Source: an uncultured virus (IMG/VR IMGVR_UViG_3300035520_000308)
Taxonomy: Duplodnaviria > Heunggongvirae > Uroviricota > Caudoviricetes
Direction: 5' to 3' (one strand)
IMG/VR virus record: IMGVR_UViG_3300035520_000308
Length of the DNA stretch: 64,000 nucleotides
Part shown: one piece after another, positions 13,475 to 62,709 of the stretch
How positions within the stretch are numbered: position 1 is the first letter of the stretch
How the letters are laid out: each line of letters begins with the position of its first letter
Translations under genes and position numbers: made by a program
Notes under the pieces: generated by a model
The model's database searches: none
Told to the model about the DNA's origin: nothing
What the model saw: only the letters and a program-made list of their open reading frames with translations

Positions 13475-13798
13475 TTACACCTCAATTTCATCTTCCTGCG
13501 GAAACTGAAAGATTTTTGGAACATTCCATATATTAGGTTGCACATATCCTCCACCTTTCAGCAAATCTGCACCTCCATCAACTTTCATGTATTTCAGATA
13601 TTTCTCACGCAACATCTCCATAGCCTTGATTGCCTTTTCTCGTGTAGAATATTTAGCAATAGTGCTTTGAGCAAATACACCGGGTGGGTCTGCAATATTT
13701 CTTGACGCAACAATGTAGTTATCATTAGTAATACCAACTACAAAATTATCGTAAGGAATGTCAATTCTTCCATCTTGGCTTATCACACGCATAATCAA
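13475..13798 (-). CDS. Phage hypothetical protein (paralog of 13146-13472)
   Basis: RVISQ...FQFPQEDEIEV. Confidence 0.6.
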   Translation of the reverse strand: MIMRVISQDGRIDIPYDNFVVGITNDNYIVASRNIADPPGVFAQSTIAKYSTREKAIKAMEMLREKYLKYMKVDGGADLLKGGGYVQPNIWNVPKIFQFPQEDEIEV

Positions 13799-14499
13799 TC
13801 CTCCACATCTGCCACAACGAAATCTTCCTTGTTGGCGTTCTGCTCAATGGTACTCTGTACGGATTCCATCATGTCATCAGCAGAATATTCCTTGAAATCT
13901 CCGTCAATAATTTCATCAGAGGTATAAATTCCCATTGAAATTTCCGGGCAATTCATTCTTGAGAAGAATGACGCTGCACGATATCTCAACATTACTTCTG
14001 GCATGGTTTTCCATTTGCTACCATTCTTTGAAGTCCATCCCTCGGCATTTGCCATATCCATATCAATTACTGGTCCTTCTACTCTCCTACCGTCTTTCGT
14101 AGTCCAGCACTGGCATGAGAACGGCTTGTTTTTCTCATCACGCTTTAAGTCAAACTGCAATTCCATGTCATATTTTCGGCTTGCGTTAATAGTTCCAATA
14201 AGCCACTTCGCATTCCATCCCGGCTTTCCTTGTATAACGTCAAGATTCTGCATTACCAAGAATGGACTTGTTTTCATTCTGATAGAAATATCAATCGCAA
14301 TCATGCAGTTTGCTTCGTTCTTCTGATACTCTTTTGGAACAAGCGTAGACTGCGACAATGCTTTCGCCATCTGATAAGCCATTGTAAAATTATCAGATGT
14401 TCCAAAAATCCCAAGGCTAAAATCCGTAACCTTTTTTTCTACCGATTTTACTTCTTTCTTTTCTTCTGTTTTTGCTACCTCATTCTTTGTTTCGCTCAT
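13795..14499 (-). CDS. RecT/Redbeta-like single-strand annealing protein
   Basis: VPKEYQ..ANCMIAI, VMQNLDVIQGKP, W..MPEVMLRYRAASFFSR; between MBL nuclease and SMC-like ATPase. Confidence 0.7.
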   Translation of the reverse strand: MSETKNEVAKTEEKKEVKSVEKKVTDFSLGIFGTSDNFTMAYQMAKALSQSTLVPKEYQKNEANCMIAIDISIRMKTSPFLVMQNLDVIQGKPGWNAKWLIGTINASRKYDMELQFDLKRDEKNKPFSCQCWTTKDGRRVEGPVIDMDMANAEGWTSKNGSKWKTMPEVMLRYRAASFFSRMNCPEISMGIYTSDEIIDGDFKEYSADDMMESVQSTIEQNANKEDFVVADVED

Positions 14500-15971: not shown

Positions 15972-16328
15972 TTATTCACACTCCTCATCATCCTTTTCTT
16001 TCACGTCAAGAATTTCAATTATTTTCAATGCCTGCTCATAGGTCAGATTATTACTTTGTGTTGTTGCCCTCATCAGATTTAACGCTCTGATTATCGTTCC
16101 TCTTTTTTTAATTCTTTCTATGTTATCTTCCGTTGGCACTGATAAATAATTTCTCGTTCGCCACCTATTATAACCTATCATTTCCCAACCATATTTATCA
16201 AATTGCGAATCAGATTTATCAATTCTAATTCTTCCAGTCGGTGTAATTCTCGTGACAGTTACAATGCGTTCTGTCCTTTCGTGTAATATCAATTTATCCC
16301 CAACATTTACGTTTAATGGTTCTCTCAT
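15972..16328 (-). CDS. Phage hypothetical protein (SH3-like beta barrel)
   Basis: VGDK...VTRITPTGRI. Confidence 0.5.
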   Translation of the reverse strand: MREPLNVNVGDKLILHERTERIVTVTRITPTGRIRIDKSDSQFDKYGWEMIGYNRWRTRNYLSVPTEDNIERIKKRGTIIRALNLMRATTQSNNLTYEQALKIIEILDVKEKDDEECE

Positions 16329-16981: not shown

Positions 16982-18892
16982 TTATTCCACCTCACTCACT
17001 TTCAATTTTTTATCATCTGACCGCCTTATCATGATTATTTGATTTTCCATCTCCGGCACTCTCCAACTGTCAAGGCTTTCTGTATCGTCCGTAATAATCG
17101 GAAGTGTTACATTATTCGCCCTCTGAAATGCCCGACAAATATCTATCTCTGCTAAAATCTTTGCACCATGATTGAGATTTCTGTCGTAGCTTTCGCCCTG
17201 CACTACTGGTTGGCAAATGTCTTTCAATTCGCCATTTAACTGTGGCTCAAACATCTTAAACTGGATATACTCAAAATTACTATTCACGCTTTCTTCCAGT
17301 AATTCATTTTTCTTCCGGTCAAACTCTTTCAGATAATCCAGTGTTCGTTGTTCATCTGCAATCTTCTGTGACAGTTCCCTCTGTTCTTTCCGTAATTCTG
17401 CAATTCGTTCATCAATCGCCACATTGTTTTCAGATTTTGCAATCTGCTTTTCGATTTCAAGAATTTGTGACTGCAAGTCGGATTCTTCATTTTTCAAATT
17501 CTGTCTTATTTCGGAAAATGAATTGTTTTCAGACATAGCCTTTTCTTTTTCATCAATCTTCTTATTCAGTTCCACAATGTCCGCTCTATCCGAAATATCT
17601 ATTGATTGTGGAAGTGCTGCTAATTGATTTTCAAGGTCTGCAATTTGTGACTTCACATCTTCTTCTTTTCTGTGCATATCCAAAACAGACTGTTTCAGTT
17701 TTTCAACTCTGTCACACGCTGCGATGATATCGTTTTTCAATCGGTTTCCTATGTTAGTGATATCATCAAGAGTATGTTTTCTATTCTTTTCAAATTCATG
17801 CACAAGAGTTTCAATCTCATCTTCCGGCAACCTCTTACCACACATCTTGCAAAACTTGTCATTTTCATCAAAAGTCATATTGTTGGTTGATTTCCATGAA
17901 TCCCTTACCTTTTCCAGTTCTATCTTGTTACAATCAATCCGTTCCTGCTCTTTGCTGATTTCAAACTCAATAGACAAACCACGGTCAGAGTTGTTTGAGA
18001 GTGCACATTTGTAACTGGAAATAGTATTTTCAAGTTCCATGCGTTTTAAAACCAGTTCCTCATTCGCATGACGCACTAAATCGTTGGCTTGGAATTTCAG
18101 TTCCAGTATTCCGTCACTTTCTTTGTCGATTTCTTCAAGCTGTTTAGATAAATCGTCCTGCTTTTCCTGATTTATTTTCATCATTTCTTCTATGGCTTTT
18201 TTCCCTAATTCCAGTTCAGCAACATCAATATCAACTCTCTGCTTTTCGACTTCATCAATTCTTGCAGGAATTTCATCAAGCTGTTGTTCCAAACCTTTGT
18301 GGTTCTCATCTCCCTTAATTGCCACATTGCACCGTTTTTTCAGTTCTGCAATCGTGCCAACTTTCAACATTTCCCTAATCGGCTCAAACTCTGGATAAAG
18401 GTCAACAATTTCATCTGTAGTATGCTTTCCGAAAGTTTCTTCGAGTAATGACCTACGCTTGGAAGTATCCATTCTCAAGAAAGAATGCGGATTCACACAT
18501 AAGTCACTAGGAATTAACTCTGAAACATATTTCGCATATTCTCCGCTTTGTTTTGGAATATCAGCCACATAACAGTCCGTCACATTTCCAGTGATTTCAC
18601 CCTTTTTGTTGCGTTTCTGGTAGTATGACTTTTTGAGTGTCACGCCATTGCCAAGTGTCAACTCAACCTCTGTCACAACATCATCAATGTCATTTCCATC
18701 TTTATCATGTGGTCTAATGCCTGTGATTTCCTTGCCATTTTCATCCTTCAAATTCAAAATCCAGTAGATAGCACGCTTAATTGTGGATTTTCCAACTTCG
18801 TTGCAACCGCTGATTGAGGTTGTATCATATAAGTCTGTTTCAAATGATTTATGCTTACAGAAATTCTGTAAACGAATATGTATGAATTTCAT
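16982..18892 (-). CDS. SMC/SbcC-like AAA ATPase of recombination module
   Basis: LQNF, Walker A GCNEVGKST, long coiled coil with central CxxC hook, LNHG signature, ITDDTES Walker B-like. Confidence 0.85.
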   Translation of the reverse strand: MKFIHIRLQNFCKHKSFETDLYDTTSISGCNEVGKSTIKRAIYWILNLKDENGKEITGIRPHDKDGNDIDDVVTEVELTLGNGVTLKKSYYQKRNKKGEITGNVTDCYVADIPKQSGEYAKYVSELIPSDLCVNPHSFLRMDTSKRRSLLEETFGKHTTDEIVDLYPEFEPIREMLKVGTIAELKKRCNVAIKGDENHKGLEQQLDEIPARIDEVEKQRVDIDVAELELGKKAIEEMMKINQEKQDDLSKQLEEIDKESDGILELKFQANDLVRHANEELVLKRMELENTISSYKCALSNNSDRGLSIEFEISKEQERIDCNKIELEKVRDSWKSTNNMTFDENDKFCKMCGKRLPEDEIETLVHEFEKNRKHTLDDITNIGNRLKNDIIAACDRVEKLKQSVLDMHRKEEDVKSQIADLENQLAALPQSIDISDRADIVELNKKIDEKEKAMSENNSFSEIRQNLKNEESDLQSQILEIEKQIAKSENNVAIDERIAELRKEQRELSQKIADEQRTLDYLKEFDRKKNELLEESVNSNFEYIQFKMFEPQLNGELKDICQPVVQGESYDRNLNHGAKILAEIDICRAFQRANNVTLPIITDDTESLDSWRVPEMENQIIMIRRSDDKKLKVSEVE

Positions 18893-18894
18893 AA

Positions 18895-19539
18895 TTACAC
18901 CGCCTTTACTTCTGAAACATGGTATCTTCCATAACCGCTTGACCTACCGCTGCCAATTCCAAGTCCAAATCCTGCAAGATTAATAATGTTCATAATCTGT
19001 TCTGCACTATACACATTTTCCATATAAGAAACTGTAAATGTAGCACTCCAACCGCAAAACCTATTGAGATATACCAATACCGGACTTCCCTTTTTAGGGG
19101 ACATAAGTTTTTCATCTATAAAATGTTGTGTAAAAATAACAGGAACTAAGTCCTCAACAACATTCACACTTGCATCAATCTTTACCTTATACTTGTCAAT
19201 CTCATTTCTGACAACTGCATCACCAAATGACTTTTTAAGTCCGAATCCAGTAACGCAAGGTGCATTTTCCTTTAATGCCTGTTCCAATCCTTTTTCTGAA
19301 AAATCTGTAGGTTTCCCGTTCTTCCAGTGCATAGAAGTAATAATGCCCTCCCATACATTAGGTTTGGTTGTGTCCTTTGCTTTGTCCTTGCGTTTGTCAA
19401 TCAGTTCTTTTGCATTGATGTCATTCATCTTGTTAAGAACTAAATCTCCGTCACCTACGATTGTTACTTGCATATACTGTACTGCAAGCGGTTTTAATTC
19501 AATTACCTGTTCATTTTTTTGCTTTTTAGCTGTTCCCAT
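18895..19539 (-). CDS. RAMP/Cas7-like RNA-binding protein (putative guide-RNA effector, Vipr-like)
   Basis: First strand VTIVGDGDLV, helix GLKKSF, F.GW.ATF strand, C-terminal G-rich loop LAGFGLGIGSGRSSGYGRY typical of RAMPs; directly downstream of the pentamer array. Confidence 0.75.
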   Translation of the reverse strand: MGTAKKQKNEQVIELKPLAVQYMQVTIVGDGDLVLNKMNDINAKELIDKRKDKAKDTTKPNVWEGIITSMHWKNGKPTDFSEKGLEQALKENAPCVTGFGLKKSFGDAVVRNEIDKYKVKIDASVNVVEDLVPVIFTQHFIDEKLMSPKKGSPVLVYLNRFCGWSATFTVSYMENVYSAEQIMNIINLAGFGLGIGSGRSSGYGRYHVSEVKAV

Positions 19540-19577
19540 TTTAAAATCCTCCTTAAAATTTGATTTTTATTTCCACA

Positions 19578-20173
19578 TCTACCGCTTTGTCCGTGACATA
19601 ACAACTTGATATATTCTGTTCTATCCTGCGTTTTCGTTTTCTATATTGCTCTGTCCTGTTCAATCGTTTAGTATGGTTAGTGGCTATGCCACCGATAAAA
19701 CGGTAGAGTATGGTATTCTGTGCTATGGCTTGCTGTCCTGTTATAAATTAAACTGTATTAAAGTGTGTTATCTGCCTTGATAGGCATTGGGCTGACCTTA
19801 AAGTTTTGCAATATTTTGTTCTGTGTTGTCATGTTTTGTATTGTATTGTTACGTTGTATCATGCGTTATACTTTGTCAACTTTAAAGTCAACCGAATACC
19901 TACCAAAATTGCCCCATAATTCGTGAGTAAAGTGTTTTATGTTTTATTGTCTTGTTATGTATTTTTTTGTAATGTCCTATGATATCGTGTCTTTGGCAAG
20001 CTTTACTCACCAACTATGAAGCAATCGTCACTTGCATAAATATCGACTTTAGCAGTAAAAATAAAATTATGTTCTTTTTTATATTGTGATGTCGTGTTTT
20101 ATAGTTTCGTGTTCTATAGTGTTGTGTATTATTCTGTAATTACCGACCTAAAGCCGATATCTATACAAGTGAC
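19578..20173 (-). ncRNA. Array of five putative guide RNAs: (NN-AYA)12-14 pentamer tracts, four enclosed by unique long stems
   Basis: Period-5 tracts at 19612-19676, 19709-19773, 19807-19876, 19933-19997 and 20070-20139; inverted arms 19578-19602/19683-19707, 19777-19805/19878-19906, 19908-19932/20001-20025 and 20027-20052/20148-20173; most mismatches are G-U on the minus strand. Confidence 0.85.
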
Positions 20174-20190
20174 TAGCAGATATTAAATTG

Positions 20191-20619
20191 TCAAAGTGCC
20201 TCTATTTCTGAAAAAATCTTTTCAAGCTCTATAAGGTTTTCATATCTTCGCTTGAAAGCCTGCAATTCCATTTTCGCCCGCTTTAACAATGATTGATATT
20301 CATCCTCATTCTTAAGAATCATTGTGACAGGCTCATAAACCGATGTTGTCGTAGTAATCTGAAATACTCTTGTTGGCTCACTTTTTTCCTCAATCGGAGT
20401 AAACACAAACATTTGTATCATTTCTCTCGCTTGTATGTTCCTGTATTTATCTCCTGCTATCGTATCATTCCATTCAAAATCATTGTGTATGACCGAGTTT
20501 TTATCTCTTGCCAACTCCACAACGTTCTGCGGTGTAATGCTTTCAAGTTTGGATATTTCCTCATAGGCTTTATTTGCATCAGCCTTATATTTTGGGATTT
20601 TCCATGATACTTTTTCCAC
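20191..20619 (-). CDS. Conserved phage protein upstream of the array (putative accessory protein)
   Basis: ITPQNVVELAR..NSVIHNDFEWND..AG.KYR..QAR motif; stop codon about 17 nt before the first stem. Confidence 0.7.
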   Translation of the reverse strand: MEKVSWKIPKYKADANKAYEEISKLESITPQNVVELARDKNSVIHNDFEWNDTIAGDKYRNIQAREMIQMFVFTPIEEKSEPTRVFQITTTTSVYEPVTMILKNEDEYQSLLKRAKMELQAFKRRYENLIELEKIFSEIEAL

Positions 20620-20897
20620 TAATTCACACCTTCTTCCGTTTCTATCTCGCTCCTAAATCTTGCATCAATCATTGCAAATAAAACTTCATGTGCAAGTTTA
20701 TACATAAGCAAATCAAGTTCCTTGTCTTGCAGTGTAATCAACATCGTTGTAAGTTTTAAAAACTCAGCGCTGTCTTCTCTGTTTGGATTCTCTTGTAAAA
20801 ATTTTCTATAATTCTTATAAACTGGACTTCTTTTAATTTCTTGAATAAAATCTTCCAAATTCAGTTTATCTACTTTTTCAAACATTTCTTCATCCAT
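20619..20897 (-). CDS. Hypothetical protein
   Basis: Overlapping start/stop with neighbours. Confidence 0.5.
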   Translation of the reverse strand: MDEEMFEKVDKLNLEDFIQEIKRSPVYKNYRKFLQENPNREDSAEFLKLTTMLITLQDKELDLLMYKLAHEVLFAMIDARFRSEIETEEGVN

Positions 20898-21172
20898 CAG
20901 TAAACCTCCCTATCGTCAAAATCCTTTTTAATCGCATTTGCAATAACCGTAGGTGCATCATCCAATCTGATACAGTTAAACAGCTTTTCGGCATTGTAAA
21001 ACGTATCGTGCGGATGTCCTGCCTCTGTGCAAGTGTTCCAGTTTGGCATAGCAATAAACCAACCGTTAATGTGTCTGCCGTAGATGATAAGGAAGTTATT
21101 TCCATTCCAATCAAGCGAAAACTCATAGCTTTCCTTCTGTTCATACGTTCCTCTGATTTTTCCATCCATCAT
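20897..21172 (-). CDS. Hypothetical protein
   Basis: IYGRHINGWFIAMPNW; in operon. Confidence 0.5.
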   Translation of the reverse strand: MMDGKIRGTYEQKESYEFSLDWNGNNFLIIYGRHINGWFIAMPNWNTCTEAGHPHDTFYNAEKLFNCIRLDDAPTVIANAIKKDFDDREVY

Positions 21173-21345
21173 TTAAAATTCCTCGCTTTCTTATTGATTT
21201 TTAATCATCAGTTAATACTTCGCAGGAATATGCACTTGCAGGATTTTCATCAAAATATATCCGTGCCATGCAACTTCCATCATTCTTTGTTAAAACAACT
21301 TTTGATACTGGTTTATCCTCATTCATTGTCAGAAATGCCAGTTCG

Positions 21346-22071
21346 TTAAGCGATATCGGACATCTCACCTTGATTTTGCTCAATATGTCCATCAATTTGT
21401 TCCTCATCTTCATCCACCTCTGTTATGTCTTTCACTACAGAAATACTTAACTCATAAGCAGTTCTAGTCTCGTATTCTCCATTTTCCAGTTTCTTGTCAT
21501 ATTCACGGCTTTGGATTCTTCCGCAAACTTCCAATTTTGTTGATACCGGAAGTTCTGCTATGTATCTAGCGTTTCTTCCCCATGCGATACACGGAAGATA
21601 ATCACTTTTCCCGCGTGCCTGCCTATTTACTGCTAAAAATAGGTCGCAAATCTCTCTCCCTTGTGGGGTGTTTCTAAATACAGGCTCTTTGCAGATGAAT
21701 CCTTTCAGAACTACATCGTTTCTACAATAGTTTGCTCCAAAGATTGTGTCTAAAAACTCTATTTCTTTTGCGAAAACATTCAAAGATACCCTATTCTTTC
21801 CCTCTGAATGTACGTTGAATGACCTGAACTCCCCAGTGATTAAAACTGGCTTCCCGATGATTTCCTCATTTGTATCAACCAATCTGTCCGAAAGTAATAC
21901 AGGTATCTTATCTGCTGTTCCACTGTATCTGTATACTTCCACTATCACAGCATCGAACGTTTCTCCGTAATTCGATTTGTGACTGTAATTCCGTGAAAGA
22001 ATTGTACCGGCAATCGTAACATTGTTGTTCATTTCCATTTCTATTTTCTCCTCCATTGATTCTTTCCCCAT
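21346..22071 (-). CDS. Tandem OB-fold SSB-like protein
   Basis: Two SSB-like repeats (NNVTIAG...GEFRS; NDVVLKG...SDYLPCIAWGRNA...GRIQSREY). Confidence 0.85.
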   Translation of the reverse strand: MGKESMEEKIEMEMNNNVTIAGTILSRNYSHKSNYGETFDAVIVEVYRYSGTADKIPVLLSDRLVDTNEEIIGKPVLITGEFRSFNVHSEGKNRVSLNVFAKEIEFLDTIFGANYCRNDVVLKGFICKEPVFRNTPQGREICDLFLAVNRQARGKSDYLPCIAWGRNARYIAELPVSTKLEVCGRIQSREYDKKLENGEYETRTAYELSISVVKDITEVDEDEEQIDGHIEQNQGEMSDIA

Positions 22072-22255: not shown

Positions 22256-22975
22256 TTAGAAACGCATCTGTGCGTTTTCGCTTTCGATTTCCTCTCTTAG
22301 ACACAATGGCAATTCATAAGAATTGATAATGTCAATTGCTTTTCCTGTCTGGTTTCTGTGTATAGCCTTGTAGGAAGTCACACCAAACTCACGTCTTAAC
22401 TGGTTTTCCAAATCTCTGTAAACTCTGCCACGTAAACTTGCATTATGATAAGCCTCGGAATCCTTGCCGCCTAAAAGCGGAACAATCTTTTTATTCTTTG
22501 CCTCTGTAATCTGCTGACACTCAATCGCAAGCAACGGCATTTCCTTTTTGAACTCTTGTAAATCTTTGTCTACTTCATCAATCTTCTGTTCCAGTTCCAT
22601 GTGTCCTTGTGCCAATAACTGTATCTGCCCCGCTGTTGTCTGTGGCACTGTGTATGTTCCTGTTCTTCTTAATGTTGGTAACACTTCGGATGTTATCCAA
22701 TGCTTAAATTTCTTTGCGTTAGGTAATTGACTTCCAATAATCAATCCATACAATCCTGATTCGTTTATCAATACTGTTTTTCTATTTTGTGTTCCGTCAA
22801 ACACTGTAGCAATTTTTCTGTCTTCTTCATCCGTATGACGTTTGATATCTCGACTACCGTTTCGGTACTCCAGCTTTTCTGTTATGTCTTTAGCGACAAA
22901 CCACGGCTCGTCATCAATAGTCACTGTTCGGATTTCTCCAAAGTCTTCATTGTTAAAAATCTGTAATTCGTTCAT
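22256..22975 (-). CDS. BRO-N / ORF6C phage antirepressor
   Basis: FNNEDFGEIRT..PWFVAKD, INESGLY, FKHWITSEVLP; C-terminal FGVTSYKAI. Confidence 0.9.
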   Translation of the reverse strand: MNELQIFNNEDFGEIRTVTIDDEPWFVAKDITEKLEYRNGSRDIKRHTDEEDRKIATVFDGTQNRKTVLINESGLYGLIIGSQLPNAKKFKHWITSEVLPTLRRTGTYTVPQTTAGQIQLLAQGHMELEQKIDEVDKDLQEFKKEMPLLAIECQQITEAKNKKIVPLLGGKDSEAYHNASLRGRVYRDLENQLRREFGVTSYKAIHRNQTGKAIDIINSYELPLCLREEIESENAQMRF

Positions 22976-62489: not shown

Positions 62490-62509
62490 GTTTTTCCTCG
62501 CTTTCCATA

Positions 62510-62698
62510 TTGTTATATAACGGCATTATATAACAACGTTATATAAAAGTCAATATAACATTTTATATAAAATTATATATAACAATGTTATATAAATGGT
62601 TATATAAAAAGATATATGATGTTGTTATATAAAATGATATATAAAAAGTTATATGACAATATTATATAAAATGCTTATATAAACACGTTATATAAATA
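62510..62698. repeat. Cluster of TTATATAA-type palindromic repeats
   Basis: Roughly ten exact or near copies of (g)ttatataa(a) in about 190 bp. Confidence 0.8.
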
Positions 62699-62709
62699 CG
62701 TAAAAAAGA

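What the first reader, a model, noticed from the sequence alone, without database searches (positions are those of the whole stretch)
19578..20173. Four unrelated 25-29 bp stems with G-U bias delimit the guides
Seen: the arms share no sequence between units, yet each pair is complementary (e.g. gtcacttgcataaatatcgactttag / ctaaagccgatatctatacaagtgac). Most mismatches are A-C on the plus strand and so G-U on the minus strand, which points to selection on RNA structure and fixes the transcribed strand. Stems C, D and E abut with about 1-nt gaps. Inference: structure-based maturation, for example by host RNase III, replaces repeat/Cas6 processing. Imperfect arms would also limit DNA cruciform deletion.
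Basis: partly seen in the sequence, partly recalled or inferred. Interest (0 to 1): 0.75.

Follow-up and report, generated by a model that had tools for sequence, protein, structure and literature searches.

The report
Stem-closed guide RNAs of phage VIPR
Four long RNA hairpins in a gut-bacterium phage each carry a guide RNA of VIPR, a CRISPR-like viral system first described in 2026, here in an unusual form that uses adenine-based repeat units and a unique stem to frame each guide.

Summary
Four inverted repeats with unrelated 25-29 nt arms lie at 19578-20173. Thirteen non-Watson-Crick stem positions are G-U on the minus strand and one on the plus strand. Stems E, D and C abut with 1-nt gaps.

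Each loop is a run of 13-19 five-base units with a fixed A-Y-A and two variable bases. The downstream gene (18895-19539, minus strand) is a homologue of Vipr, the Cas7-like protein of VIPR systems (profile E=5e-15 to PDB 36pp, SUSP1 Vipr). The locus is therefore a divergent VIPR system of Clostridia phages.

It differs from published VIPR in three ways:
- The scaffold is AYA instead of GGY.
- Three RNA-contact positions of the protein differ (N/S/G instead of H/D-E/W).
- Each guide tract is closed by its own 22-40 bp stem instead of ending in a shared 3' tail.

Compensatory changes in relatives show the stems are selected as RNA helices on the vipr-sense strand. RNase III processing is plausible but untested. 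No target was found.

Non-GGY VIPR repeats, including TGT-compatible motifs, were already mentioned in an October 2026 preprint. This scan has also met VIPR on other DNA. Verdict: a new variant of a known kind.

The parts
20191..20619 (-). Gene A, 142 aa (phrog_15946), conserved accessory gene directly upstream of the array; candidate vap
   Evidence: PHROG hit. No Pfam, NCBIfam, PADLOC or PDB match. AF2 model pLDDT 81 with no Foldseek pdb hit at E<=0.001. A homologue lies upstream of array plus vipr in 19 of 23 loci rows, which is 18 of 22 distinct contigs.
20175..20182 (-). 5' half of an 8-bp closing helix (P0) that encloses hairpins E, D and C; pairs with 19769-19776
   Evidence: MFE fold. 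In relatives 83% of cells are paired, with one-sided changes only (helix 1), so support is weak.
20027..20173 (-). vrRNA hairpin E: 26-bp stem (20027-20052 with 20148-20173) and a 95-nt loop of 19 pentamers, 14 of them well formed
   Evidence: -40.1 kcal/mol, z -7.7. 9 pairs show changes on both sides in relatives.
19908..20025 (-). vrRNA hairpin D: 25-bp stem and a 68-nt loop of 13 pentamers
   Evidence: z -7.0. 7 pairs show changes on both sides and 100% of cells are paired.
19777..19906 (-). vrRNA hairpin C: 29-bp stem and a 72-nt loop of 13-14 pentamers, the most regular ACA/NN tract
   Evidence: z -6.8. 4 pairs show changes on both sides.
19769..19776 (-). 3' half of closing helix P0
19708..19768 (-). 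Linker between hairpins C and B; holds a short A-N-A pentamer tract that is not enclosed by a stem
   Evidence: The tract caller marks 19701-19760. The stretch is conserved in the alignment.
19578..19707 (-). vrRNA hairpin B: 29-bp stem and a 72-nt loop of 13 pentamers; ends about 38 nt before the vipr start codon
   Evidence: z -4.9. 7 pairs show changes on both sides.
18895..19539 (-). vipr: 214-aa Cas7-like RAMP protein, homologue of SUSP1 Vipr, with G-loop GIGSGRSSGYGRY
   Evidence: A profile of 84 relatives against the PDB hits 36pp_D 'SUSP1 Vipr protein' at E=5.4e-15 over residues 20-211. AF2 model pLDDT 96.6. Foldseek top hits are Cmr4/Csm3/type VII Cas7, E 9e-7 to 1e-4, prob 1.0. G-loop residues.
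16982..18892 (-). ABC/SMC-type ATPase (AAA_15; AriA/LmuB-like), often but not always next to the VIPR core; possible accessory gene or part of the recombination module
   Evidence: Its position varies among relatives.

Best explanation
This is a divergent VIPR (Viral Interference Programmable Repeat) locus in the early operon of a temperate phage of gut Clostridia. The four hairpins are four guide-RNA (vrRNA) genes, transcribed with the operon from the minus strand. Each loop is the guide tract: 13-19 five-base units in which a fixed A-Y-A alternates with two variable bases. By homology with the SUSP1 system, one Vipr protomer (gene 18895-19539) binds each unit, hides the fixed trinucleotide and presents the two variable bases, which together read a target DNA. 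The stem of each hairpin, unique in sequence, takes the place of the shared 3' tail of published vrRNAs and marks where a guide begins and ends. The stems are maintained as RNA helices. Most likely they are cut or opened during maturation, RNase III of the host being the obvious candidate. The reason is that a loop held shut by 25-30 bp could not wind about 2.6-3.8 turns round a long DNA, as the SUSP1 guide does. Shown here: the Vipr homology, the pentamer code, its co-variation with the protein G-loop, the strand, and selection on the stems. Inferred: filament assembly, the target rule, cleavage, and the role in conflict between phages.
For: (1) Loop periodicity. In 13 loops the CA dinucleotide autocorrelation at lags 5, 10, 15 and 20 is 70, 67, 69 and 61, against 0-22 at other lags. 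The position matrix from 65 unique loops is A 77%, C 59% (Y 80%), A 85%, N, N. Some relatives show A-N-A.
(2) The downstream gene is a Vipr homologue.
(3) The association is conserved. Of 120 viral loci that hold six ACANN units in a row, 21 have a flanking stem of score >=19. Of those 21, 19 have a gene A or vipr homologue in the <=600 nt held. 15 of 17 genome loci with a vipr relative have hairpin arrays just upstream.
(4) Protein and RNA co-vary. In 23 loci of this clade (G-loop N-S-G-R) the tracts are AnAnn in 19 loci and never GG. In 80 loci of relatives with G-loop GEW the tracts are GGnnn in 62 loci and never AnA. All tracts lie on the vipr-sense strand. The changed positions align with H17, D177 and W178, which hold G1 and G2 in the SUSP1 structure (paper 10.64898/2026.04.26.720927, Results).
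(5) Strand and selection on the stems. Across 74 distinct hairpins defined strand-symmetrically there are 265 G-U on the vipr-sense strand against 75 A-C; the window has 13 against 1. On the 4-sequence alignment, 94.9% of 334 cells pair, against 38-44% when partners are slid. 29 pairs changed on both sides, against 1-8 when slid and 10.9+/-2.5 in shuffles, with 0 of 500 shuffles reaching the observed value.
(6) Variable positions change faster: substitution rates per site are 0.055, 0.044 and 0.010 for A, Y, A against 0.091 and 0.067 for N, N in 20 related loop pairs (p=5e-4). Stems are 88% identical and loops 72% in the same hairpin pairs.
(7) There is no excess of promoter-like sites and no terminator-like site inside the array, which fits co-transcription.
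Against: No RNA data exist for this locus, so transcription, strand and processing are unproven. No target was found. Ten-unit exact patterns of guides C, E and B had 0 hits in viral contigs. Guide D had 2 hits in metagenome contigs, but each matched 0 of 6 flanking guide bases and neither put the skipped base at the codon wobble position, so they look like chance. Guide C with up to 3 mismatches had 0 hits in 5 and then 401 genomes. 117 guides scanned against 0.71 Mb of held phage DNA showed no excess over shuffled guides at skip 0, 1 or 2. The 1-nt skip rule is borrowed from a distant relative. 75 A-C positions and 97 other mismatches show the stems are not perfect on either strand. The hairpin set was selected for pairing, which inflates its counts; one search does not have that bias, but its structure comes from the window. 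An October 2026 preprint lists WGT/NN and TGH/NN repeats beside Vipr-like genes. If those are this family and were oriented by the gene, they would point to the other strand.
Confidence: 0.68

Rival explanations
1. Same VIPR reading, but the stems are not cleaved. They stay in the mature RNA as caps that bound the Vipr filament and block exonucleases. This would be the functional counterpart of the 3' pseudoknot tail of SUSP1 vrRNAs. Release from the operon transcript would be by other nucleases in the 1-nt or 69-nt linkers.
For: In SUSP1 a structured 3' pseudoknot caps the filament. The stems here abut with 1-nt gaps, so a cut between hairpins would be enough to separate them. There is no fixed register between stem and pentamer phase and no conserved bases at the loop ends, as expected if only the helix matters.
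Against: A loop closed by 22-40 bp cannot interwind several turns with a long DNA unless the stem opens. This is my inference from the figure of about 25 nt of vrRNA per turn. Stems of this length are classic substrates of double-strand-specific RNases (established knowledge, not tested here).
Confidence: 0.25
2. The guides are made from the plus strand as UGU/NN (URU/NN) repeats, antisense to the operon. The minus-strand helices would serve only the mRNA.
For: U-G-U keeps the G2 and Y3 of the canonical GGY. A preprint lists WGT/NN and TGH/NN arrays next to Vipr-like genes (10.64898/2026.10.21.760802, passages read). The promoter-like matches in the array are mostly on the plus strand, but they are not above chance: 6 found against 4.0+/-2.2 expected.
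Against: In the GEW relatives, about 320 of about 326 tract calls have the G-rich (RNA-sense) motif on the vipr-sense strand, and all AnA tracts of this clade are on that strand too. G-U asymmetry is 265 to 75. Plus-strand hairpin folds reach only z -1.7 to -3.5. In many relatives the middle base is U or A, so no G is conserved on the plus strand.
Confidence: 0.07
3. The loops are not DNA-targeting guides. They are decoys or sponges that soak up Vipr (their own or a rival's) or another host RNA-binding protein.
For: No target was found. Satellite-encoded vrRNAs that redirect a rival's VIPR are on record (abstract of 10.64898/2026.10.15.759431).
Against: The array sits in an operon with its own vipr gene in nearly all relatives. 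The two variable positions change about twice as fast as the scaffold, which is the pattern of specificity-bearing guides. The target searches were of low sensitivity, being exact matches or small samples.
Confidence: 0.08
4. The inverted repeats act at the DNA level, as cruciforms or recombination sites that let guide cassettes be swapped between phages.
For: Hairpin modules are present or absent as whole units among close relatives: E-D-C-B in the window, E-D-B in L001, D-C-B in L004 and E-D-C in L005.
Against: A DNA cruciform needs both strands to pair, yet mismatches are strongly biased to G-U on one strand. Compensatory changes keep RNA-type pairs, including G-U. This reading could hold in addition to the RNA role, not in its place.
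Confidence: 0.05

Closest known systems
Type II VIPR of Escherichia phage SUSP1 and the Pseudomonas fulva prophage (bioRxiv 10.64898/2026.04.26.720920 and 10.64898/2026.04.26.720927; PDB 36pp)
   Same: A small Cas7-like Vipr protein (profile E=5e-15). Several guide RNAs per locus, built of tandem 5-nt units with three fixed and two variable bases. A similar number of units: 13-19 here against 9-16 published. Phage-encoded, with a small accessory gene alongside.
   Different: The fixed trinucleotide is A-Y-A, not G-G-Y. Protein positions aligned with H17, D177 and W178 are N, S and G. There is no shared 3' tail or pseudoknot; each tract is instead the loop of its own 22-40 bp stem. The array lies upstream of vipr, between the accessory gene and vipr. 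The hosts are gut Clostridia. Targets and skip rule are unknown here.
VIPR-like arrays with non-canonical repeat units (GAC/NN, CAC/NN, WGT/NN, TGH/NN) in bioRxiv 10.64898/2026.10.21.760802
   Same: Period-5 arrays with a non-GGY fixed trinucleotide next to a Vipr-like fold. TGT/NN, the plus-strand reading of ACA/NN, fits both WGT and TGH, so this family may be among those 21 clusters.
   Different: In the passages I read there is no mention of stems around the tracts, of the strand, or of changes in the protein. Fig. S10 is not readable here, so identity with this family could not be checked. My data put the scaffold on the vipr-sense strand as A-Y-A.
VIPR arrays punctuated by hammerhead ribozymes (types I and V; legend of fig. 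S19 of 10.64898/2026.04.26.720920)
   Same: Structured RNA between guides that would separate them without a Cas6-type enzyme.
   Different: Here there is no ribozyme: Rfam gives no match at E<=1 in 18500-21500. The structure encloses each guide and does not sit between guides. Any cleavage would need a trans-acting nuclease.
Class 1 CRISPR-Cas backbone (Cas7/Csm3/Cmr4 on crRNA, Cas6 processing of repeat hairpins)
   Same: RAMP fold with a glycine-rich loop (Foldseek prob 1.0) and periodic binding of a guide.
   Different: There is no direct repeat shared between units. No Cas or defence family matched among the 17 neighbouring ORFs scanned with Pfam and PHROGs, and PADLOC run on 5 of them gave only weak ATPase matches. 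The period is 5 nt, not 6. Pairing is noncontiguous in the published relatives.
RNase III-processed precursors: stems flanking 16S/23S rRNA, T7 early mRNA sites, tracrRNA:crRNA duplexes (recalled textbook knowledge)
   Same: A long, nearly perfect double-stranded stem brackets the functional RNA inside a polycistronic transcript.
   Different: Cleavage has not been shown here. Stems of 22-40 bp with G-U pairs are compatible with it but do not prove it.

Membership tests
VIPR system | A Vipr protein (minimal RAMP: RRM core, thumb, glycine-rich loop) encoded at the locus | tested here: met
   Profile of 84 relatives against the PDB: 36pp_D SUSP1 Vipr, E=5.4e-15, query residues 20-211 against 3-188. 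The single sequence alone gives only E=0.54. AF2 model pLDDT 96.6. The best Foldseek matches are Cas7-type RAMPs.
VIPR system | Non-coding RNA of tandem pentanucleotide units with a fixed trinucleotide and a variable dinucleotide | tested here: met
   Period-5 autocorrelation. Position matrix. Faster change at the two variable positions.
VIPR system | The fixed trinucleotide is GGY, or one of the published relaxations NNNGG, YNNNG, NNNNG | tested here: not met
   The fixed bases are A-Y-A on the vipr-sense strand. 0 of 23 loci of the clade show a GG tract. On the opposite strand the motif is U-R-U, with G in only 59% of units.
VIPR system | A conserved 3' tail (pseudoknot in the SUSP1 clade) after each repeat tract | tested here: not met
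   The arms of the four window stems share no sequence. There are no conserved bases at loop ends or stem ends across 116 loops.
VIPR system | A vipr-accessory (vap) gene beside vipr | tested here: inconclusive
   A conserved 142-aa gene lies upstream in 18 of 22 distinct related contigs, but it has no detectable similarity to anything named. Sequences of vap1-6 were not available to compare.
VIPR system | Viral or proviral location | tested here: met
   Phage genes surround the locus: anti-repressor, SSB, RecT, endolysin. Relatives lie on IMG/VR contigs and in Clostridia MAG contigs.
VIPR system | Guides match natural targets under the 1-nt skip rule | tested here: inconclusive
   No convincing target. 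The two metagenome hits look like chance. The searches were exact-match or of small samples.
VIPR system | vrRNAs are expressed and co-purify with Vipr | not testable with these tools
   No RNA run was listed.
CRISPR-Cas | An array of identical direct repeats with spacers, plus cas genes (Cas1/Cas2 or effector modules) | tested here: not met
   No shared repeat between units. No Cas family matched among the 17 neighbouring ORFs scanned with Pfam and PHROGs; PADLOC was run on 5 of them and gave only weak ATPase matches.
RNase III substrate | Double-stranded RNA of about two helical turns or more that is cut with 2-nt 3' overhangs | not testable with these tools
   Stem length of 22-40 bp, median 27.5, meets the length requirement. 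Cleavage was not observed.

The most novel reading that the evidence does not exclude
These loci define a separate VIPR type of gut Clostridia phages. In it the protein has been re-specified from a guanine scaffold to an adenine scaffold (H/D-E/W to N/S/G at three RNA-contact positions). Guide maturation has been handed to a host double-strand-specific RNase through guide-specific stems. Guides can then be gained, lost or swapped as self-contained hairpin cassettes without any shared repeat or tail. The stems also settle the strand of the TGT/ACA-type repeats. Because the scaffold is read differently, this type would be orthogonal to GGY systems, both in nature (immune to rival decoy vrRNAs) and as a tool.
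Probability: 0.35. Interest if true: 0.75.

Novelty: new variant of a known kind. Interest (0 to 1): 0.58.

Why it matters
VIPR was described only in 2026, and its guide code is known structurally for the GGY scaffold alone. This locus gives a natural case in which the scaffold letters and three protein contact positions have changed together. That is a direct, testable handle on how Vipr reads its RNA and on whether orthogonal VIPR systems can coexist. It also shows a third way of delimiting guides, after shared tails and ribozymes: a private stem for each guide. The G-U pattern of those stems fixes the transcribed strand from sequence alone. The family is abundant in gut metagenomes: 2371 protein clusters at E<=0.001, with Lachnospiraceae, Oscillospiraceae, Blautia and Ruminococcus MAGs. 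VIPR-type conflict between phages may therefore be common in the gut microbiome.

Tried and rejected
Searches that led nowhere:
- Rfam at E<=1 over 18500-21500: no match.
- tRNA/tmRNA scan of the window: none.
- blastn of 18895-20619 against the phage collection: no match.
- No whole genome is held for the window.
- A 21-nt leader motif conserved in four relatives found 21 viral loci, but only the 3 already known contigs had the period-5 signal. The rest are chance matches.
- RNA runs: no RNA holder listed.
- Promoter and terminator scan: 6 promoter-like sites against 4.0+/-2.2 expected, and 0 terminators.

Target searches under the published 1-nt skip rule:
- Viral contigs with exact 10-unit cores of guides C, E and B: 0 hits each.
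- Metagenome contigs with guide D: 2 hits. For each, 0 of 6 flanking guide bases matched and the paired bases fell on codon positions 3 and 1. I judge them chance.
- Guide C with up to 3 mismatches in 5 and then 401 genomes of one family: 0 hits.
- 66 guides against the window at skips 0-3: only the trivial self-match at skip 3.
- 117 guides against 0.71 Mb of held DNA at skips 0-2: no excess over shuffled guides.

Gene A: no family, no PDB sequence hit, no Foldseek hit, and only unnamed phage clusters in the Atlas.

Supplement: the supplementary PDF of PMC13142463 could not be read.

Ideas held before the Vipr hit and then dropped: a TRAP-like ring-protein binding site, an Hfq/Crc or CsrA sponge, a MazF (ACA) decoy, a Rho utilisation site, a replication origin, and a retron or DGR template. 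None explains the conserved Vipr neighbour.

Apparent long stems around GGY tracts in the GEW relatives (16 of 326 tract calls) turned out to be pairing between the G-rich repeats themselves in the 5 examples inspected.

Full report
**Observation**

The region 19578-20173 holds four inverted repeats with arms of 25-29 nt that are 79-88% complementary and 68-95 nt apart. The arms of different pairs share no sequence. Pairs E (20027-20173), D (19908-20025) and C (19777-19906) abut with single-base gaps. Pair B (19578-19707) follows after 69 nt.

With stems defined symmetrically for both strands, the four window stems hold 91 Watson-Crick pairs, 13 positions that are G-U on the minus strand, 1 that is G-U on the plus strand, and 4 other mismatches.

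The minus-strand RNA of 19540-20200 folds to -166.5 kcal/mol (z -14.2). The plus strand folds to -136.2 kcal/mol (z -2.5). Taken singly, the minus-strand hairpins give z -7.7, -7.0, -6.8 and -4.9, and the plus-strand versions give -3.1, -3.5, -2.0 and -1.7.

Across the whole 64-kb window the same hairpin search finds only one other site on the minus sense.

The loops are A/C-rich on the minus strand and are built of five-base units. In 13 loops from the window and four relatives, CA dinucleotides recur at lags 5, 10, 15 and 20 with counts of 70, 67, 69 and 61. Other lags give 0-22.

Over 65 unique loops the unit is A (77%), C (59%; pyrimidine 80%), A (85%), then two positions of mixed composition. 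In some relatives the middle base is free, giving A-N-A.

The window loops hold 19, 13, 13-14 and 13 units. Across 116 loops the median length is 72 nt.

**Context**

The array lies in a minus-strand early operon of a temperate phage. The genes in order are:
- anti-repressor (22256-22975)
- SSB (21346-22071)
- DUF6618 (20897-21172)
- a 142-aa gene A (20191-20619)
- the array
- a 214-aa gene B (18895-19539)
- an AAA_15/SMC-like ATPase (16982-18892)
- further genes down to RecT (13795-14499)

Rfam, tRNA and phage-collection searches found nothing for the array.

**Identity of gene B**

Gene B ends in a glycine-rich loop. Alone it gives a weak PDB hit to 'SUSP1 Vipr protein' (36pp_D, E=0.54). A profile of 84 diverse relatives hits the same chain at E=5.4e-15 over nearly its full length.

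The AlphaFold model has pLDDT 96.6. Its best structural matches are Cas7-type RAMPs: Cmr4, Csm3 and type VII Cas7.

Vipr is the protein of VIPR systems, described in three 2026 preprints:
- 10.64898/2026.04.26.720920: I read the Results, the Discussion, the type-classification method and the figure legends.
- 10.64898/2026.04.26.720927: I read the first part of the Results.
- 10.64898/2026.10.15.759431: I read the abstract and selected passages.

In those systems vrRNAs of 9-16 units alternate a fixed GGY with a variable NN. One Vipr protomer binds each unit. The NN bases read double-stranded DNA, skipping every third base. A shared 3' tail caps each guide.

**The association holds outside the window**

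Of these, 21 have a flanking stem of score >=19, while the others reach 15 at most. Of the 21, 19 have a homologue of gene A or gene B (40-86% identity) in the <=600 nt held. The other two are filled by their arrays.

Of 17 genome loci with a gene B relative, 15 have hairpin arrays directly upstream. The hosts are MAGs labelled Lachnospiraceae, Oscillospiraceae, Blautia, Faecalimonas, Eisenbergiella, Ruminococcus and others. Arrays reach 7-8 hairpins.

Gene A lies upstream in 18 of 22 distinct related contigs. The ATPase moves about.

**Co-variation of protein and scaffold**

In this clade the positions aligned with SUSP1 H17, D177, W178 and R179 are N, S, G and R. In the wider family they are mostly H, E/D, W and R.

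According to the structure paper, H17 and D177 hold G1, W178 stacks on G2, and R179 contacts Y3.

I fetched 80 loci of relatives with the GEW loop and ran one tract caller on both sets:
- The GEW loci have GG-type tracts (GGnnn in 62 of 80 loci) and no A-N-A tract.
- The 23 loci of this clade have AnAnn in 19 and no GG tract.

All these tracts lie on the vipr-sense strand.

**Strand, and selection on the stems**

Over 74 distinct hairpins defined strand-symmetrically there are 265 G-U positions on the vipr-sense strand against 75 A-C. The hairpins are related to one another, so the p-value of 5e-26 overstates independence.

On the alignment of the window with three relatives, I used the window's stems as the structure. 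94.9% of 334 cells pair, against 38-44% when partners are slid by 1-3 columns. 29 of 112 pairs changed on both sides, against 1-8 when slid and 10.9+/-2.5 in shuffles; 0 of 500 shuffles reached the observed value.

A wider count over 77 related hairpin pairs gave 79 double changes that keep pairing against 4 that lose it. That set was selected for being hairpins, so the count is inflated.

Loops diverge faster than stems (72% against 88% identity). Within loops the two variable positions change about twice as often as the scaffold.

There is no fixed register between stem and pentamer phase and no conserved handle.

Long stems of this kind are particular to this clade. Those detected in GEW loci were pairings between the G-rich repeats themselves in the five cases I looked at.

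**Mechanism**

Shown here:
- a Vipr homologue
- a pentamer code with fixed and variable positions
- matching changes in the protein
- RNA-level selection on guide-specific stems on the vipr-sense strand

Inferred:
- Vipr polymerises on the loops.
- The NN bases read DNA.
- The system acts against rival mobile elements.

On processing I have only an argument. In SUSP1 the guide winds with the DNA at about 25 nt per turn. A 65-95 nt tract would therefore make 2.6-3.8 turns. A loop held shut by 25-30 bp cannot do that on a long DNA, so the stems must be opened or cut.

RNase III is the natural candidate for stems of 22-40 bp. I put this sub-claim near 0.45. The rival, that the stems persist as caps, I put near 0.25.

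**What speaks against, and what is open**

There are no RNA data and no target was found. Three exact-core scans of viral contigs were empty. Two metagenome hits failed to extend. A mismatch-tolerant scan of 5 and then 401 genomes was empty. Scans against held DNA showed no excess over shuffles. These searches were insensitive, and the skip rule may differ in this clade.

**Novelty**

VIPR itself is known. A fourth preprint (10.64898/2026.10.21.760802; passages and section 4.22 read) reports 21 clusters of period-5 arrays with non-GGY units beside Vipr-like folds. Its examples include WGT/NN and TGH/NN. TGT/NN is the plus-strand reading of ACA/NN, so this family may already be among them.

In the texts I could read, the searches came out as follows:
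- 'hairpin' appears once, for the tail, and 'stem' 0 times.
- 'hairpin' 0 and 'stem-loop' 0.
- 'adenine' 0, 'A-rich' 0 and 'inverted repeat' 0.
- Library searches: 8 papers hold 'vrRNA'.

I found no description of guide tracts closed by private stems, of an adenine scaffold on the gene's strand, or of the matching G-loop changes. Figures and supplements (Fig. 5A, S16-S19, data S4; Fig. S10) were not visible to me and could change this.

Earlier notes of this scan record VIPR systems on other DNA with GGY, CAC, GAY and GY-NNN units, and one with tRNA-like spacers. None of them shares sequence with this Vipr.

I therefore rate the finding a new variant of a known kind, of moderate to good interest.

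Noticed in passing
window 62500-62700: A dense array of a dozen or more TTATATAA-containing repeats at irregular 11-17 nt spacing, overlapping one of the few other long hairpins of the window (62526-62654). It looks like an iteron or operator cluster, perhaps a replication origin or a partition site.
   Followed up: no
window 19708-19776 and 20175-20182: The 69-nt linker between hairpins C and B carries 6-7 A-N-A pentamers outside any stem. An 8-bp helix (20175-20182 with 19769-19776) would close hairpins E, D and C into one multi-helix junction. Support from relatives is weak: 83% of cells paired, with one-sided changes only.
   Followed up: partly
window 16982-18892: A 636-aa ABC/SMC-type ATPase (AAA_15; PADLOC AriA 2.5e-10, LmuB 2.8e-8) lies next to vipr here and in L001, L004 and L151, but upstream of gene A in L147, L152 and L154. 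It could be a VIPR accessory gene or part of the RecT recombination module.
   Followed up: partly
window 15972-16328: A 118-aa protein with a sub-threshold match to the phage ProQ C-terminal-like domain (25.1 bits against a cut-off of 27), a possible RNA-binding protein in the same operon.
   Followed up: no
L165:2641-4287, L170:2580-4480 and L176:2559-3388: Relatives with the canonical GEW G-loop carry very long GGY/NN arrays downstream of vipr, with up to 18-20 overlapping tract calls over 1.6-1.9 kb. This is probably the 'staggered' architecture of the VIPR paper.
   Followed up: no
L002:2519-2610: One guide loop of a 60%-identical relative contains three tandem copies of a 10-nt unit (CAGGGCAGAG), an internal duplication of two pentamers. 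This suggests guides can grow by slippage.
   Followed up: no
window, L001, L004, L005 (alignment A1): Whole hairpins are present or absent as units among close relatives: E-D-C-B, E-D-B, D-C-B and E-D-C. Guides therefore seem to be gained and lost as cassettes bounded by their stems.
   Followed up: partly
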